From positions 37,597 to 101,596 of IMG/VR virus record IMGVR_UViG_3300042868_010125: 64,000 nucleotides of DNA; one strand, given 5' to 3'. Position numbers and translations under genes: made by a program. Of the stretch, positions 1-5,661 are shown piece by piece. Each line of letters begins with the position of its first letter. Within the stretch, counting starts at the first letter, position 1. Source of the stretch: a virus. Under the pieces are notes generated by a model. The model worked only from the letters and a program-made list of their open reading frames with translations, was not told where the DNA came from and did no database searches.

Positions 1-175
1 GGACCTGCCCCATCTTCATACAGCCTATCTTTTTTGCCCATGCAGGTAGGGTACAAACACGAATAGCCTTTGTCAAACGCTTAAAAAGTCAGGAAGATAG
101 CTCAGTTTGCACTTTTTGTAAAGCCCCTGATACCCTTTGCCTCTAATAACAAAAGAGAGAGAAAAGGTAGTACAT

Positions 176-760
176 ATGAAGACGCCCCAAGGATATACAA
201 AGACGAATGCAAAATTGCCTGAAGAGGTATATGAAAATTTTAAAAAGATTGCATCTGACTTAGAACTTCGTAATGCTTACATTAAAGAGTTAAGAGCAGC
301 GTCTTGGAGTCTTCAAAGTATTGCAGATGCAGCAGGCATCTCTAGTAGAGAACGAGTTCGTCAAATTATTGAAGGACGCTATAAACATTTAAGTTCTTCT
401 AAAGTATCTACTGACTTCTCTGTTCCTGCACTGCCTTTAAAAGAGGTTAAGCAACCAAGAGTTATTACCGAGCCTTCAGAACAAACTCTCTCTAAGTTAT
501 TAGAACTCAAGCCTAGTGCTCAAAAGGTACGCTCACACTCTCCTAATTTTAGAAAAGAAGCAGAGCAGTACACCGAGTTAATTAACCATGCCATTACCGT
601 TGAAGGAGTAAGTGTCCGACACTTAGGTAAGCGCTTAGGTGTCTCTCCAAGTGCTCTTCGTTTTCGTATGGCTAGATATGGTTACATTACTAGTCATGAT
701 GGAAAGAGTATTTGCTACAAACCAATCTTAGATAAAAACAGATACGTCTTGCAGTCTTGA
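176..760 (+). CDS. Two-HTH DNA-binding protein
   Basis: Two HTH-like segments, WSLQSIADAAGISSRERVRQII and VSVRHLGKRLGVSPSALRFRM. ATG176 follows AAAGG and is preferred to TTG137. Confidence 0.6.
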   Translation: MKTPQGYTKTNAKLPEEVYENFKKIASDLELRNAYIKELRAASWSLQSIADAAGISSRERVRQIIEGRYKHLSSSKVSTDFSVPALPLKEVKQPRVITEPSEQTLSKLLELKPSAQKVRSHSPNFRKEAEQYTELINHAITVEGVSVRHLGKRLGVSPSALRFRMARYGYITSHDGKSICYKPILDKNRYVLQS

Positions 761-1038
761 TACAAGAAGATGTAATTGTTTTTCATCCTCATCGCTCAGA
801 CGGGTTTAGGATTCAAGGGCAAACAATAAATACGCTGACCAGTTTTATGGGAACAGGTGGGCTCAACATGTCCATGGTTGCCACAGAAAATATTCGAAGA
901 ATCACCCCTGAAGAGTGCGAAACTCTGCAGGGGTTTCCTTTAGGATGGACTAGTACCCAAGCAGATACGCACAGGTACAAACAACTAGGTAATGCTGTAA
1001 CTGTCAATGTTGCAACATGGTTAGGTAATCGAATATGA
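757..1038 (+). CDS. C5-cytosine DNA methyltransferase C-terminal module (one TRD-like unit plus motifs IX/X)
   Basis: RRITPEECETLQGFP..WT...RYKQLGNAVTVNV matches C5-MTase motifs IX/X. TL-type TRD unit INTLTSFMGTGG. Coupled to both neighbours by TTGA/ATGA overlaps. Confidence 0.8.
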   Translation: MIQEDVIVFHPHRSDGFRIQGQTINTLTSFMGTGGLNMSMVATENIRRITPEECETLQGFPLGWTSTQADTHRYKQLGNAVTVNVATWLGNRI

Positions 1039-1763
1039 GCACATTCGTTTCTTTATTCGCTGGCGTTGGTGGTTTCGATCTTGGCTTTGAAAAAGCAGGG
1101 CACACTTGTGTTGGTCAAGTAGAGATAGATAAAAATGCTCAGAAGATATTAAAAAAACATTGGCCTGACATTCCATTACATGATGATGTTAAGACAGCAA
1201 TAGAGTGGGCAAAGGAGAGTGATTTAATTGGAAAAGTTGACATCGTCTGCGGAGGATTCCCTTGCCAAGACGTCAGCGTCGCTGGAAAGCGTGCTGGTAT
1301 CGCTGGGGCAAGAAGTGGACTCTTCTGGGACGCAATACGATTTGCGCAGGAAGTCAAAGCACACACTATCGTCTTGGAAAATGTGCCAGGACTTTTATCA
1401 AGCAACGAAGGACGCGATTTTGGAGTCGTCATCTCTGAAATGGCCAACGCAGGGTATAGCCACATCGAATGGCGAGTTTTGGATTCGCAATTCTTCGGAG
1501 TCCCCCAACGTCGTCGTCGAGTCTTCATTGTTGGAAGTGTTGGAGACAGAAGTAAATCCCCGATACTTATTGAGTCCGAAAGCCTGCGAGGGGATAATGC
1601 GCCGAGCAACTCGTCGCGGAAAAACTCTTCCACCAGCGCTGGAAAAAGCACTGTTGCAAGGATGCGAGGGTTCGGAGACTACGAAGTAGATACTGTTGCA
1701 TCCACTTTGAAGGCGAGGGACTATAAAGATGTCACAGACATCGTGGTTCGTCAAAGTAATTAG
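1035..1763 (+). CDS. C5-cytosine DNA methyltransferase catalytic subunit (motifs I-VIII plus one TRD-like unit, no IX/X)
   Basis: SLFAGVGG (I), GGFPCQDVS (IV), LENVPG (VI), PQRRRRVF (VIII). Ends ASTLKARDYKD without motifs IX/X. Confidence 0.92.
   Translation: MSTFVSLFAGVGGFDLGFEKAGHTCVGQVEIDKNAQKILKKHWPDIPLHDDVKTAIEWAKESDLIGKVDIVCGGFPCQDVSVAGKRAGIAGARSGLFWDAIRFAQEVKAHTIVLENVPGLLSSNEGRDFGVVISEMANAGYSHIEWRVLDSQFFGVPQRRRRVFIVGSVGDRSKSPILIESESLRGDNAPSNSSRKNSSTSAGKSTVARMRGFGDYEVDTVASTLKARDYKDVTDIVVRQSN
1228..1689 (+). CDS. Nested alternative-frame polypeptide resembling the M.EcoHK31I beta subunit
   Basis: +1 frame inside the MTase gene. SD AAAGGAG at 1211-1217 precedes TTG1228. C-terminus SSLLEVLE..VNPRYLLSPKACEGIMRRATRRGKTLPPALEKAL resembles, from memory, overlapping beta polypeptides of split C5 MTases. 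Confidence 0.7.
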   Translation: MEKLTSSAEDSLAKTSASLESVLVSLGQEVDSSGTQYDLRRKSKHTLSSWKMCQDFYQATKDAILESSSLKWPTQGIATSNGEFWIRNSSESPNVVVESSLLEVLETEVNPRYLLSPKACEGIMRRATRRGKTLPPALEKALLQGCEGSETTK

Positions 1764-2277
1764 AAGTGGTGCAAGATATGAAGATGGAACACTTCCGCCA
1801 GAAGTATGGCGCGAGAGAGTTATTTGTCCTACTTTGAATGCTTTTGATAATAGTGGAGACTCCAGAGCAGTAGTAACAATTGTTCACTCTATTCAAAATA
1901 CTGTAATTGGTAGAGCAGATACCGCTGGTCCTCAAGGGAAAGGGTATGGAGAAGTGACTGACCCAATGTTTACTGTAGACACATCTTCTCCTCACGCTGT
2001 ATCAGTTACACCTATTCAAGATGCAAGAGAAATTGATAAAAAACAAAATGGATTAGGAATAGCAGAGGCTGGCGCTCCTGCATATACCGTTGACACAATC
2101 TCACATCAGGCAGTTAATTTTTCAACAATAGTAAGAAGACTCACTCCTAGAGAGTGCGAGAGACTACAAGGTTTTCCAGATGACTGGACTGGCGATCAAT
2201 CAGACTCTGCTAGATATAAACAAATGGGAAATGCAGTTACAGCAAATGTCGTTGAGTGGATAGGGAGAAGATTATGA
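1729..2277 (+). CDS. Second C5-MTase C-terminal module (three TRD-like units plus motifs IX/X)
   Basis: CPTLNAFD, PMFTVDTSSPHAV and PAYTVDTISHQAV units, then RRLTPRECERLQGFPDDWT..RYKQMGNAVTANV. Own SD-like GAGGGA at 1715-1720. Confidence 0.85.
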   Translation: MSQTSWFVKVIRSGARYEDGTLPPEVWRERVICPTLNAFDNSGDSRAVVTIVHSIQNTVIGRADTAGPQGKGYGEVTDPMFTVDTSSPHAVSVTPIQDAREIDKKQNGLGIAEAGAPAYTVDTISHQAVNFSTIVRRLTPRECERLQGFPDDWTGDQSDSARYKQMGNAVTANVVEWIGRRL

Positions 2278-2429
2278 ATAAATTAGAGCCTAAATACGGC
2301 TGGGGATGCAAAGATAATCACGTAGACAAACAAGCGTTGGCTACTCAGATAGAGCAATTAGAAATTGATATCTCTTTGAGCCCTACTGAAGTCCTTGCTT
2401 ATGTTGCCAAACTTGTAAAAAGACTATAG
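2274..2429 (+). CDS. Small hypothetical protein, 51 aa (not in ORF track)
   Basis: ATGA overlap with the previous stop; MNKLEPKYGWGCKDNH...LAYVAKLVKRL. Confidence 0.55.
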   Translation: MNKLEPKYGWGCKDNHVDKQALATQIEQLEIDISLSPTEVLAYVAKLVKRL

Positions 2430-2443
2430 TATTCTTTTTACCG

Positions 2444-2606
2444 ATAGGGGTTGCGATGAGCCCCGTACTTTAGCAAAAGACTAAAGACGCTGGAAACCTA
2501 TAACAATGGGCAAGGATATACGTGGGATGCGAGCTATAGCCCATGATTGGACAAGAGGGGAGCCTAACTTACGGTTAGGCTATAAGAAACCCACCTGCGT
2601 ATATCC
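2444..2606 (+). ncRNA. Candidate structured non-coding RNA of unknown class (strand inferred)
   Basis: Lies between convergent genes and carries several helices: 2514-2522/2598-2606, 2561-2568/2574-2581, 2468-2473/2481-2486, 2447-2452/2459-2464, and crossing 2506-2511/2539-2544. TATAGT at 2425-2430 upstream. Confidence 0.5.
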
Positions 2607-2615
2607 GAATTACTT

Positions 2616-2930
2616 TTATTCATATCCTTGGTTTTTAAAAAATATCAATCCTTCTTCAGTAGCAGAGAACACTGCTTTAAGATCTTCGTTATATTCAATT
2701 TTGATAAGACCCATTTCATACAAATCAATTAAATTATCGTTTATTCCATTCATAATTTCATCGTACATTTCAGGAAGTAGAATTTTCATTAACTCAAAGT
2801 TATATGTGTAAGTGAGTTCCCCATCTTCATCAAAACCATCTTCTATTAAAATTCCAGCCTCAATCATGCGTTCTACAAAATCATCCGCCTCGTCATCCGA
2901 GAGATACTCGAAGTCTTCCATGTCATCCAT
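2616..2930 (-). CDS. Acidic hypothetical protein, possibly winged-helix-like
   Basis: Clean 104-aa ORF with internal repeat MIEAGILI / LYEMGLIKI. Confidence 0.6.
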   Translation of the reverse strand: MDDMEDFEYLSDDEADDFVERMIEAGILIEDGFDEDGELTYTYNFELMKILLPEMYDEIMNGINDNLIDLYEMGLIKIEYNEDLKAVFSATEEGLIFFKNQGYE

Positions 2931-2960
2931 ACTAGAAATCTTAACTGATATACTGGATAT

Positions 2961-3200
2961 ATGATTTATTCTAAGTTTGGCGAGTCGGATGTTTATGTTT
3001 ACTCCATCGCTGGTCGCGGCCTTGTATGCGCAATGTGTTACTTTGGTGACGAGTTAGAAGTTTCCTTTAATGCAGAGTCAACGCAAGAAATGATTGACCA
3101 CCTTAACGCCCACCAAAAAATTGGTCACTCCCTCCCTCCCAATCTCCTTAACCTCCTCCTTCTCGATAACCTAGTTAATTATCCCGATTCTCTTTCTTAG
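2961..3200 (+). CDS. Small Cys/His hypothetical protein
   Basis: SDVYVY..LVCAMC...MIDHLNAHQKIGH pattern, possible metal site. Confidence 0.6.
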   Translation: MIYSKFGESDVYVYSIAGRGLVCAMCYFGDELEVSFNAESTQEMIDHLNAHQKIGHSLPPNLLNLLLLDNLVNYPDSLS

Positions 3201-3201
3201 T

Positions 3202-3247
3202 ACGGAACGAGAGCGCGAAAAAACAGATTTTCAAAGCAAGGTATAAT
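3202..3247 (+). promoter_or_regulatory. Repeated upstream element, copy 1, with -10 box
   Basis: ACGGAACGAGAGCGCGAAAAAAC at 3202, TATAAT at 3242, SD AAGGAG at 3258. Confidence 0.7.
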
Positions 3248-3267
3248 TAACTTCTTTAAGGAGTTTC

Positions 3268-4167
3268 ATGCCAATCCTAGGAACATCTGCGTCGGGATAC
3301 GTTGATCCTTCGTACACACTTTATCAAACATTTAATGCATCTGGAACATTCACTATGCCTAATACTGCAACGCAGGTGGCAATTTTTATTATTAGTGGCG
3401 GAGGTGGCGGAGGTGCTGGCGGAAACGTTGGAAACTTAAATACTAAATTCCAAACTTATAACACTGGTGCATCGGGAGGTGGTGGCGGTGCGTCTGGAAT
3501 TGTTGCCGCTGCCCAAGATGTGACATTAACTCCTGGAGCAACTTATCCTATAGTCGTTGGTGCAGGTGGCACTGGCGGTACTAAAGGTTTTGTACCATAT
3601 AACGGTGGTACAGGTGGACAAAGTTCATTTTCTAATAACAGCAGCAGCCTGATAACAGTTAACGGTGGTGGAGGAGGTACTAGTAACTATGCAACTAGAA
3701 CAGGTGGTCCTTCTGCCGGAGGAACTGTCGGTAGTATCAGCGCAAACGTAGTGTATAACTCCGCTTCACCGCAGGCAGGTGGAGATAGCGCAACAGCACA
3801 AGGGAGCGCGGCCATATCAAACAACACCGCAATTAACCTAAGCATGACACTTCCAGGAGCAGGAACAGTCAATAAACAGATAGGCTCCGGCGGAGCGGGT
3901 GGAGGGTCAGGTGCTTCTGGTCGTAACGGAGCAGGACTAAATAACGGTGGGTCATCAAGCAACGGTGGCGGAAGCGGAGGTAACGGCGGTAACGCTACTA
4001 CTAACGCCGGATCGACCGGTAACATCGGAAACGGTGCTAATATTATTGGTGGTGGAGGAGGCGGTGGTGGCGGTGCAGGAACTCCTTCCACTGACGCTGG
4101 AAACGTAGGAGACGGAACAAACGCCGGGGCAGGACAAGCTGGACAGGTAATCATCTACGTTAAGTAA
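3268..4167 (+). CDS. Glycine-rich domain protein, putative virion fibre/decoration paralog 1
   Basis: MPILGTSASG N-terminus, TFNASGTFTMP, GGGGG runs, GQVIIY C-terminus. Confidence 0.7.
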   Translation: MPILGTSASGYVDPSYTLYQTFNASGTFTMPNTATQVAIFIISGGGGGGAGGNVGNLNTKFQTYNTGASGGGGGASGIVAAAQDVTLTPGATYPIVVGAGGTGGTKGFVPYNGGTGGQSSFSNNSSSLITVNGGGGGTSNYATRTGGPSAGGTVGSISANVVYNSASPQAGGDSATAQGSAAISNNTAINLSMTLPGAGTVNKQIGSGGAGGGSGASGRNGAGLNNGGSSSNGGGSGGNGGNATTNAGSTGNIGNGANIIGGGGGGGGGAGTPSTDAGNVGDGTNAGAGQAGQVIIYVK

Positions 4168-4836: not shown

Positions 4837-5661
4837 ATGCCAATTTTAGGAACAGTAAGTTCTGGATATGTGCAACCAGTGTACTCACTTGCGCTAACTG
4901 CTAACAACACCCAAAACTGGACCGTACCTGCGGGAGTGAGTAGCATAGTTGTAGTTACAATTGGTGGAGGAGGATCAGGAAGCTCTATAAGTAATAATGG
5001 AAGTCTATCTGGTGGTGGAGGCGGAGGTGCAGGTGGAGCAGCAGCAGCAATCATCCCTGTAACAGCAGGACAGACATACTCTGTTACTGTAGCAGGTGCG
5101 TCTGGGACATCAAAGATTACATCACCTAACTCTGTTGATTTGGTAACTGCAAACGGAGGAAGTAACGTTGCCACTGTTACGCAGAACGGTGGAAGTGGTG
5201 GCAATGGAAGCTCTAATATTGAAAAATCATTTACAGCATCTGGTGGAAGTGGTGGTAACGGTGGTAACTACTCAACCTCAAGTGCGTTAGGAAATAACGG
5301 TGATAATGGAGGAGCAAATTCCACTGGAAACTTTGCTATTGACGTAGCAGGACTACCTAACTACGCTGTTTCCTTATATGGTGGAGGCGGTGGCGGAGGC
5401 GGAGCTTTTGCCTCTGGAAGCAGACTTGTCTCAGCTAAAAGAAACGGTGGAACTGGCGGAGGAAACGCGGGAAATGGAGGAAGTGGCTTTTACCAAAATA
5501 GCACTAACTCACCTGTAAGTGCTAATGCTGGTAACGCAGGAACTGTAGGCGGTGGCGGAGGTGGAGGCGGCGGTGGTTACTTTTTTATTAGCGTAGAACA
5601 AGGTAGAGGTGGCGATGGTGGAGCTGGATCAAACGGACAGGTAGTAATATATTCTGCCTAA
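4837..5661 (+). CDS. Glycine-rich domain protein, paralog 2
   Basis: MPILGTVSSG, NWTVPAGV, GGGG runs, GQVVIY; SD AAGGAG. Confidence 0.7.
   Translation: MPILGTVSSGYVQPVYSLALTANNTQNWTVPAGVSSIVVVTIGGGGSGSSISNNGSLSGGGGGGAGGAAAAIIPVTAGQTYSVTVAGASGTSKITSPNSVDLVTANGGSNVATVTQNGGSGGNGSSNIEKSFTASGGSGGNGGNYSTSSALGNNGDNGGANSTGNFAIDVAGLPNYAVSLYGGGGGGGGAFASGSRLVSAKRNGGTGGGNAGNGGSGFYQNSTNSPVSANAGNAGTVGGGGGGGGGGYFFISVEQGRGGDGGAGSNGQVVIYSA

What the first reader, a model, noticed from the sequence alone, without database searches (positions are those of the whole stretch)
757..2277. Four-piece C5 methyltransferase with two alternative specificity/closing subunits
Seen: motifs I-VIII are in 1035-1763, while motifs IX/X occur twice, in separate ORFs upstream (757-1038) and downstream (1729-2277). 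These carry different TRD-like units (1 and 3; a fifth unit ends the catalytic ORF). Both have plausible starts (TTGA coupling; SD GAGGGA). Established: split C5 MTases exist (M.AquI) and Bacillus phage multispecific MTases carry tandem TRDs. Inference: one catalytic subunit could pair with either C-terminal subunit, giving a combinatorial multispecific anti-restriction methylase.
Basis: partly seen in the sequence, partly recalled or inferred. Interest (0 to 1): 0.75.

Follow-up and report, generated by a model that had tools for sequence, protein, structure and literature searches.

The report
Four-gene split phage cytosine methyltransferase
This phage encodes its DNA cytosine-5 methyltransferase as four separate genes, all kept by selection: a catalytic piece, a hidden gene nested one base out of frame inside it, and two different pieces that could each complete it, so one catalytic core may mark two sets of DNA sites, although no assembly or activity has been shown.

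Summary
ORF 1035-1763 carries C5-methyltransferase motifs I-VIII. ORFs 757-1038 and 1729-2277 each carry motifs IX and X behind different TL-type recognition units.

The split is not a sequencing error. In 33 of 58 related loci the catalytic and closing parts are separate ORFs, and the frame relation differs between lineages. The closing ORF has a conserved start.

The upstream ORF began as a 5'-truncated closing gene but is under purifying selection (pN/pS 0.10-0.17).

A fourth piece exists. ORF 1228-1689, nested in the +1 frame, carries the segment that normally follows motif VIII. Selection switches to that frame there across the whole family, including phage P1 Dmt. This layout is known from M.EcoHK31I.

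Three other phage contigs carry one catalytic gene followed by three or four tandem closing genes. So "one core, several closing subunits" recurs.

That either closing subunit pairs with the core, and that the two give different specificities, remains inference.

I rate it a new variant of known kinds (M.AquI split, M.EcoHK31I nested gene, multispecific phage methylases). Earlier notes of this scan report the same layout on other genomes.

The parts
137..760 (+). Upstream helix-turn-helix ORF (207 aa). It is context only. Its stop overlaps the start of the next ORF.
   Evidence: Weak HTH Pfam hits and PHROG HTH / transcriptional repressor hits at E 1e-5. Conserved next to the methyltransferase genes in L007, L008 and L040, with pN/pS 0.15-0.23.
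757..1038 (+). gamma-prime: short closing subunit (93 aa). It has one TL-type unit, motif IX (from 895) and motif X (from 976).
   Evidence: PF00145 positions 269-322, E 6e-13. pN/pS is 0.10-0.17 against three relatives, and both halves are selected. It is 70% identical to the C-terminal 92 aa of the L019 closing subunit but lacks that subunit's first ~39 aa.
1035..1763 (+). alpha: catalytic subunit (242 aa). It holds motif I (1056), IV (1251), VI (1377) and VIII (1506), then a stretch without selection on its own frame, then one TL-type unit.
   Evidence: PF00145 positions 2-169, E 2e-55. pN/pS 0.05. Related catalytic ORFs were found in 55 viral loci.
1212..1217 (+). AAGGAG, a Shine-Dalgarno-like site 10 nt before TTG 1228 of the nested ORF.
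   Evidence: Read from the sequence. The same AGGAG-TAA-TTG arrangement is conserved in L007, L010, L018 and L019. Other clades have their own SD plus GTG or ATG at the same place.
1228..1689 (+). beta: nested ORF in the +1 frame of alpha (153 aa).
   Evidence: The +1 frame has no stop from -270 to +165 nt around motif VIII in 28 of 29 diverse family members, where synonymous shuffles expect 1-5 stops. Gene callers called it as a gene in 71 metagenome protein clusters. It matches phrog_16143 at E 3e-7.
1525..1653 (+). Dual-coded stretch where selection acts on the +1 frame. It is the structured C-terminal module of beta, the segment that follows motif VIII in ordinary C5 methyltransferases.
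   Evidence: In 19 independent pairs, the share of differing codons that change the residue at +60..+150 nt is 0.72-0.94 in frame 0 and 0.30-0.49 in frame +1. AlphaFold pLDDT is 73-91 for beta residues 101-148 and below 50 for residues 1-52. The segment lies in frame after motif VIII in P0001.
1715..1720 (+). GAGGGA, a Shine-Dalgarno-like site 8 nt before ATG 1729.
   Evidence: Read from the sequence.
1729..2277 (+). gamma: long closing subunit (182 aa). It has a conserved N-terminal module, three TL-type units, motif IX (from 2134) and motif X (from 2215). It overlaps alpha by 35 nt in the +1 frame.
   Evidence: PF00145 positions 254-321, E 5e-15. pN/pS 0.11 against L007. The start of the closing ORF is conserved across split relatives.
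2256..2429 (+). Small downstream ORF (57 aa) of unknown function. It overlaps the end of gamma by 22 nt. Context only.
   Evidence: Conserved in L007 and L008 at 74-84% aa identity, pN/pS 0.29.

Best explanation
The region encodes one C5 DNA methyltransferase built from separately translated chains in a single, translationally coupled operon.

The chains:
- Alpha (1035-1763) supplies the AdoMet-binding and catalytic motifs I-VIII and one recognition-type unit.
- Beta (1228-1689), translated from its own start in the +1 frame inside alpha, supplies the short helical segment that normally follows motif VIII. Alpha reads that DNA only as an unstructured linker.
- Gamma (1729-2277) supplies further recognition units and motifs IX and X, which close the fold. 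This is the M.AquI type of split.
- Gamma-prime (757-1038) is a second, shorter closing chain with a different recognition unit. It descends from the 3' part of another closing gene and has been kept by selection. It most likely competes with gamma for the same alpha/beta core, giving a second enzyme form with another target set.

Shown here: the ORFs, their motifs, selection on all four, and the recurrence of each design element in relatives.

Inferred: assembly, alternative pairing, different specificities, and a role in protecting phage DNA from host restriction.
For: - Motif content of the ORFs.
- The split is conserved in 33 of 58 related loci, with three different frame relations and a conserved closing-ORF start. 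Fused forms also exist.
- Purifying selection: alpha 0.05, gamma 0.11, gamma-prime 0.10-0.17 (P 2e-6 to 2e-10), covering gamma-prime's recognition unit upstream of its first in-frame ATG.
- Beta: selection switches frame. The +1 frame is kept open. Each clade has its own conserved SD and start. Its C-terminal module is confidently folded. In the nearest fused relative, the frame-0 reading of the same DNA is predicted disordered, pLDDT below 50 at residues 197-232. The segment is homologous to an in-frame post-VIII stretch of a PF00145 protein and to dcm profile positions 190-302.
- Precedents: M.EcoHK31I needs a beta chain encoded in another frame inside the alpha gene (PMC2836561). M.AquI is split within the variable region (PMC3404938).
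- Gamma-prime's unit followed by IX-X occurs in cis directly after an alpha-tail-type unit in the fused L104 and L106. So alpha plus gamma-prime reproduces a natural single-chain layout.
- L187, L188 and L120 carry one catalytic gene plus a nested gene, followed by 3-4 tandem closing genes.
Against: - No experiment or complex model shows that any of these chains bind each other.
- Gamma-prime lacks the N-terminal module that begins nearly every separate closing chain.
- Gamma-prime sits upstream of alpha only in this small clade: WIN, L007, L008 and L040, out of about 80 loci holding similar sequence. Its position is therefore a recent accident of recombination.
- Selection shows that it is used, not what for.
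- Beta here lacks motif IX, unlike M.EcoHK31I beta.
- The N-terminal ~95 residues of beta show no selection of their own.
- The TL units have not been shown to act as independent target-recognising domains.
- The virus record is 76% complete, so another partner gene cannot be excluded.
Confidence: 0.55

Rival explanations
1. Gamma-prime is a translated leftover of an upstream methyltransferase cassette and does not form an active enzyme with alpha. It would be kept for another role, for example as a competitor that tunes or delays methylation, or as a partner of a host or other phage catalytic chain.
For: It is a 5'-truncated closing gene lacking the module that begins other separate closing chains. 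The upstream position is confined to four close relatives. It is translationally coupled to an HTH regulator gene.
Against: Motifs IX and X and the recognition unit are all intact and all under purifying selection. The same unit plus IX-X completes single-chain relatives without the missing module. No other catalytic ORF was found in the record.
Confidence: 0.25
2. The pieces are artefacts. On this reading 1035-2277 is really one gene broken by a sequencing indel near 1729-1763, and 757-1038 is an unexpressed remnant.
For: Single-chain relatives exist (L022, L039, L104, L106 and all P1- and DMCA-like members). Raw reads could not be examined.
Against: The same split is present in L007 at 95% identity, and in 33 of 58 loci down to ~50% identity. 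The frame relation is +1, +2 or same-frame-with-stop, and the closing ORF has a conserved start beside the catalytic stop. ORF 757-1038 has pN/pS 0.10-0.17.
Confidence: 0.03
3. Alpha and gamma are joined by programmed +1 ribosomal frameshifting in the 35-nt overlap, and beta's segment is likewise reached by frameshifting from alpha rather than by its own initiation. The product would be one or two long chains.
For: Gamma and beta both lie in the +1 frame of alpha. A run of five C precedes motif VIII. Database proteins P0062, P0029 and P0069 join an alpha N-terminus to a beta C-terminus.
Against: - Relatives place gamma in +2, or in frame behind a stop, which a +1 shift cannot bridge.
- Gamma has its own SD and ATG.
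- The +1 frame is kept open for ~280 nt upstream of motif VIII, and each clade keeps an SD plus start codon right after the bounding stop. That fits initiation rather than a shift site.
- No slippery site is conserved.
- In M.EcoHK31I, removing beta's start codons abolished activity (PMC2836561).
Confidence: 0.05

Closest known systems
M.AquI (Agmenellum quadruplicatum; two-chain C5 methyltransferase; Karreman and de Waard 1990, as described in PMC3404938 and PMC5944983)
   Same: [quoted passage not shown] The smaller chain has the rest of the variable region and motifs IX-X. The two are encoded by adjacent genes. This is the alpha/gamma relation here.
   Different: Here there are two different closing chains, one on each side of the catalytic gene, plus a nested third chain. 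The setting is a phage gene set with no restriction enzyme evident nearby.
M.EcoHK31I (E. coli HK31; alpha/beta C5 methyltransferase; Lee, Kam and Shaw 1995, as described in PMC2836561)
   Same: A second chain is encoded entirely in another reading frame inside the catalytic gene, with its own start. Bacterial loci L064-L066 show the full layout: the nested chain carries motif IX, and the main frame carries I-VIII, the TRD and X.
   Different: In the window the nested chain stops before motif IX and carries only the post-VIII segment. Motifs IX and X are both on separate downstream and upstream chains. I could not compare directly with the M.EcoHK31I sequence, because no copy was available to the tools.
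Multispecific C5 methyltransferases of temperate Bacillus phages (SPR, phi3T, rho11s; Trautner group).
   Same: Phage enzymes with several TL-containing recognition modules between motifs VIII and IX. The modules are gained, lost and reordered between relatives.
   Different: In those enzymes all TRDs sit in one polypeptide. Here the modules are spread over alpha, gamma and gamma-prime, and each closing chain brings its own motifs IX-X. That each unit confers a specificity is untested.
Circularly permuted C5 methyltransferases of type H (M.BssHII, M.Alw26I, M2.Eco31I, M.Esp3I, M2.BsaI; PMC5944983)
   Same: The gene order gamma-prime then alpha puts motifs IX-X ahead of I-VIII, with the break between motif VIII and the recognition region.
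   Different: Those enzymes are single polypeptides. Here a stop codon overlapping the next start (ATGA) separates two ORFs.
Phage P1 Dmt and other single-chain members of the same family (L001-L003, L062, L063)
   Same: Same catalytic family. The same conserved +1 ORF overlaps motifs IV-VIII and the following ~55 codons.
   Different: The main frame continues through the recognition region and motifs IX-X without a split. There is only one closing part.

Membership tests
C5 DNA methyltransferase (Pfam PF00145) | Motifs I, IV (PCQ), VI (ENV), VIII, IX and X are all present | tested here: met
   All are present, but spread over separate ORFs: I-VIII in 1035-1763, and IX/X in both 757-1038 and 1729-2277.
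C5 DNA methyltransferase (Pfam PF00145) | Overall fold of the assembled enzyme | tested here: inconclusive
   Only the nearest single-chain relative, L022, could be modelled. Foldseek's top match was M.HhaI (E 3e-17, TM 0.58/0.67). The window's chains could not be modelled as a complex.
M.AquI-type two-chain C5 methyltransferase | [quoted passage not shown] | tested here: met
   ORF 1035-1763 ends with one TL-type unit after motif VIII.
M.AquI-type two-chain C5 methyltransferase | The small chain has the distal variable region and motifs IX-X, and is encoded by the adjacent gene | tested here: met
   ORF 1729-2277. The split is conserved in relatives.
M.AquI-type two-chain C5 methyltransferase | Both chains are required, and together sufficient, for activity | not testable with these tools
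   This needs co-expression and a methylation assay.
M.EcoHK31I-type nested alpha/beta methyltransferase | The beta chain is encoded in another reading frame inside the alpha gene and is translated from its own start | tested here: met
   ORF 1228-1689 in the +1 frame, with SD and TTG. The frame is kept open and is under selection across the family. Translation itself was not observed.
M.EcoHK31I-type nested alpha/beta methyltransferase | The beta chain carries motif IX | tested here: not met
   The window's nested ORF ends at 1689, before any motif IX. The feature is met in the bacterial loci L064-L066.
M.EcoHK31I-type nested alpha/beta methyltransferase | The alpha chain carries motifs I-VIII, the TRD and motif X | tested here: not met
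   The alpha chain here stops at 1763 without motif X. Motif X lies on the two closing chains.
Multispecific phage C5 methyltransferases (Bacillus phage type) | Several TRDs in tandem within one polypeptide between motifs VIII and IX | tested here: not met
   TL-type units are present in tandem in gamma, but the set is divided among three chains.
Multispecific phage C5 methyltransferases (Bacillus phage type) | Each TRD confers an independent target specificity | not testable with these tools
   This needs methylome mapping of module deletions.
Circularly permuted C5 methyltransferase (type H) | Motifs IX-X precede I-VIII in one polypeptide | tested here: not met
   The stop TGA at 1036-1038 overlaps ATG 1035. 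The two ORFs lie in different frames, and the same holds in L007, L008 and L040.

The most novel reading that the evidence does not exclude
Phages build combinatorial cytosine methyltransferases by subunit swapping. One catalytic core (alpha plus the nested beta) is completed in trans by any of several closing chains, each bringing its own recognition modules and motifs IX-X. There are two such chains here and up to four in L187. A single small operon would then yield several enzymes with different target sets, and new specificities could be acquired by adding or exchanging one short gene.
Probability: 0.4. Interest if true: 0.8.

Novelty: new variant of a known kind. Interest (0 to 1): 0.62.

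Why it matters
Only two natural multi-chain C5 methyltransferases are cited as exceptions in the papers read here: M.AquI and M.EcoHK31I (PMC3404938).

This locus combines both designs and adds a second, different closing chain. Related phages carry three or four. If the chains really swap, three things follow:
- It would be a new route to multispecific DNA methylation and to escape from restriction.
- It would be a natural example of fragment complementation of the kind engineers have built for targeted methylation.
- It would be a reason to re-annotate thousands of phage methyltransferase genes that are now recorded as single ORFs while hiding a selected +1 gene.

It also cautions against treating split methyltransferase ORFs in metagenomic phages as pseudogenes.

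Tried and rejected
- Double programmed frameshift. I first read the +1 conservation after motif VIII as a +1 shift followed by a -1 return. I rejected this because no slippery site is conserved, the +1 frame is open ~280 nt upstream, and each clade has an SD and start there.
- RNA or DNA-level constraint on the stretch conserved at nucleotide level with P1 and Pm86. Rejected because the substitutions show codon periodicity in the +1 frame.
- Sequence searches of the nested ORF. Against PDB chains, as a single sequence and as a profile, I found nothing meaningful. Pfam and NCBIfam gave no hit.
- Fold search with the nested-ORF model gave only generic helical matches, Z 4.0 or lower.
- The promoter and terminator scan of 1-3300 was not above shuffled expectation.
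- A search for further methyltransferase pieces in the phage's own record found none.
The DNA behind P0001, P0062, P0029 and P0069 could therefore not be read.
- The original M.EcoHK31I paper (PMC306636) is not held. What I say of that enzyme comes from PMC2836561 and PMC3404938.
- pN/pS for the tandem closing genes of L120 against L187 is near saturation (pS 0.7-0.9). One pair was first computed in the wrong frame. I cite only gamma1 (0.16) and gamma4 (0.37), as rough values.
Full report
WHAT IS THERE

The window is the right-hand 64 kb of a 101.6-kb tailed-phage record, estimated 76% complete. It carries terminase, primase, DNA polymerase, helicase and tail-fibre genes.

At its left end five + strand ORFs follow one another with overlapping stops and starts:
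- An HTH protein (137-760).
- A 93-aa ORF (757-1038; its TTG lies inside TTGA).
- A 242-aa ORF (1035-1763; its ATG lies inside ATGA).
- A 182-aa ORF (1729-2277; GAGGGA 8 nt upstream, 35-nt overlap).
- A 57-aa ORF (2256-2429).

Pfam PF00145 matches:
- The 242-aa ORF matches profile positions 2-169 (motifs I-VIII, E 2e-55).
- The 93-aa ORF matches positions 269-322 (E 6e-13).
- The 182-aa ORF matches positions 254-321 (E 5e-15).

These are the only such matches in the record. I call the pieces gamma-prime (757-1038), alpha (1035-1763) and gamma (1729-2277).

IS THE SPLIT REAL?

A scan of viral contigs with alpha gave 55 related loci. L007 (95% identical, on a 133-kb contig), L008 and L040 share the order HTH, gamma-prime, alpha, gamma.

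Of 58 loci in which both motif VIII and motif X could be placed, 33 have the catalytic and closing parts in separate ORFs and 25 have them fused.

Among the split loci, the closing ORF lies in one of three relations to the catalytic ORF, depending on lineage:
- The +1 frame.
- The +2 frame.
- The same frame, behind a stop.

It nearly always begins at the same conserved N-terminal module, beside or overlapping the catalytic stop. A sequencing indel or a +1 frameshift fusion cannot explain that pattern.

Gamma has pN/pS 0.11 and alpha 0.05 against L007.

THE UPSTREAM CLOSING ORF

Origin:
- Gamma-prime is 70% identical to the last 92 residues of the closing subunit of L019 and 67% identical to that of L110.
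- It lacks their first ~39 residues, the module that begins other separate closing chains.
- A closing ORF directly upstream of the catalytic ORF occurs only in the window, L007/L109, L008 and L040/L108, out of about 80 loci holding gamma-prime-like sequence.
- Its motif IX-X part is only ~62% identical to that of gamma.

By origin, then, it is the 3' part of another closing gene, left or placed upstream by recombination. It is not a recent copy of gamma.

It is nevertheless not decaying:
- pN/pS is 0.10-0.17 at pS 0.30-0.41 against three relatives (P 2e-6 to 2e-10).
- Both the recognition unit, which lies upstream of the first in-frame ATG, and the IX-X half are selected.
- The TTGA junction is conserved in all four genomes.

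Its unit followed by IX-X occurs in cis directly after an alpha-tail-type unit in the single-chain relative L104. A similar minimal layout occurs in L106. So alpha plus gamma-prime would rebuild an architecture that exists in nature as one chain.

THE FOURTH PIECE

Right after motif VIII, the +1 frame of every family member I looked at reads the segment that normally follows motif VIII in C5 methyltransferases. The main frame reads a poorly conserved stretch there. Members examined include phage P1 Dmt, Pasteurella phage Pm86, Caulobacter phage DMCA and Vibrio phages.

Evidence that the +1 frame is coding:
- Substitution pattern, 19 independent pairs. Upstream of motif VIII, the share of differing codons that change the residue is 0.2-0.7 in frame 0 and ~0.87 in frame +1. 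At +60 to +150 nt it is 0.72-0.94 in frame 0 and 0.30-0.49 in frame +1.
- Open frame. The +1 frame has no stop from -270 to +165 nt in 28 of 29 diverse members. The +2 frame has 1-6 stops over -270 to 0, and synonymous shuffles expect 1-5 in the +1 frame.
- Start signals. Each clade keeps an SD-like site and a start codon just after the bounding stop. In the window these are AAGGAG 1212-1217, TAA, then TTG 1228.
- Gene callers have called this ORF in 71 metagenome clusters, and a PHROG holds it.
- Homology. A profile of it matches, at 98.9% probability, an in-frame stretch just after motif VIII of a PF00145 protein. A longer version (P0068) aligns to dcm profile positions 190-302.
- Structure. 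AlphaFold gives a confident three-helix module for residues 101-148 and disorder for residues 1-52. In the nearest single-chain relative, the frame-0 reading of the same DNA is disordered (residues 197-232, pLDDT below 50). The catalytic and IX-X parts of that model are confident and match M.HhaI.

A note from earlier in this scan pointed me to M.EcoHK31I. I checked this in PMC2836561. Its beta chain is encoded entirely in another frame of the alpha gene and carries motif IX, and removing its start codons abolishes activity. PMC2836561 and PMC3404938 both state that the enzyme consists of these two chains and needs them to associate.

Three bacterial loci (L064-L066) show exactly that layout. 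In the window the nested chain stops before motif IX. It is therefore a shortened relative of that design, not a member in the strict sense.

DO SEVERAL CLOSING CHAINS PER CORE OCCUR ELSEWHERE?

Yes. L187, L188 and L120 are an unrelated phage lineage. Each carries one catalytic ORF with its nested +1 ORF, followed by three or four tandem ORFs. Each of those has its own recognition-type units and motifs IX-X. In L187 they are 347, 114, 143 and 135 aa.

Rough pN/pS for two of them is 0.16 and 0.37, at near-saturated pS. Earlier notes of this scan report similar sets on other genomes. I treat those notes as leads only.

HOW IT MOST LIKELY WORKS

- Alpha and beta form the catalytic core.
- Gamma or gamma-prime closes it by supplying motifs IX and X and the remaining recognition modules.
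- A catalytic domain has one place for motif X, so the two closing chains should compete rather than bind together.
- They carry different module types, each of which recurs in different combinations in other phages. Different target sets are therefore plausible.

None of this has been tested. Assembly, activity, specificity and an anti-restriction role are all inference.

RIVALS

- A translated leftover with another role (0.25).
- Frameshift fusion (0.05).
- Sequencing artefact (0.03).

COMPARISON AND NOVELTY

Each element has a published precedent: M.AquI, M.EcoHK31I, permuted gene order, and multispecific phage enzymes.

I did not find the following combination in the papers the searches returned, and I do not know of one:
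- A nested chain without motif IX.
- Two different closing chains flanking one catalytic gene.
- Recurrence of multi-closer arrays in other phages.

I rate it a new variant of known kinds. It is of solid interest to restriction-modification specialists and for phage annotation, but unproven in function.

Noticed in passing
L187:159-3493, L188:2827-5829, L120:1-2087: A separate phage lineage with one catalytic ORF (292 aa) and its nested +1 ORF (188 aa), followed by 3-4 tandem ORFs. Each of those carries its own TL-type units and motifs IX-X. Between the catalytic ORF and the first closing ORF of L187, a further frame encodes TL units without IX-X.
   Followed up: partly
L064:2799-3740, L065:2748-3653, L066: Bacterial MAG loci (Thiothrix, Hyphomonadaceae, a deltaproteobacterium). 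The main frame carries motifs I-VIII, one recognition unit and motif X. It reads the motif IX DNA out of frame. The +1 ORF runs from near motif IV through the post-VIII segment to motif IX and then stops. This is the M.EcoHK31I layout.
   Followed up: partly
L001:884-3925 (phage P1 isolate, dmt): This Dmt is 1014 aa. It appears to hold an intein-like insertion inside motif IV: Cys at the start, His-Asn then Cys at the end. It also keeps the conserved +1 ORF after motif VIII.
   Followed up: no
P0062, P0029, P0069 (metagenome proteins): These proteins join an alpha N-terminus to the beta C-terminus, with the switch at different places. One switch lies at the run of five C just before motif VIII. 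They may be sequencing errors or natural frameshift variants. Their DNA could not be fetched.
   Followed up: no
P0001 residues 144-272: The profile of the nested ORF aligns to the in-frame post-VIII region of P0001 over 120 columns. That includes the part which, in the nested genes, overlaps motifs VI-VIII of the main frame. I cannot explain how the same DNA could be ancestral in both frames. A fused form born from a duplicated, frame-shifted copy is one possibility.
   Followed up: no
L008:1857-2834: This close relative (94% in the catalytic part) has lost the last unit of alpha and the middle units of gamma through deletions. It keeps gamma-prime, the nested ORF and the split. Recognition modules therefore turn over quickly.
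   Followed up: partly
window 3268-4167 and 4837-5661: Two glycine-rich ORFs (299 and 274 aa) with similar N-termini and long Gly/Ser/Asn/Ala tracts, just downstream of the methyltransferase operon. Their function is unknown.
   Followed up: no
window 2616-2930 (- strand): A very acidic 104-aa ORF convergent with the methyltransferase operon. A GC-rich hairpin lies between them at about 2444-2463.
   Followed up: no
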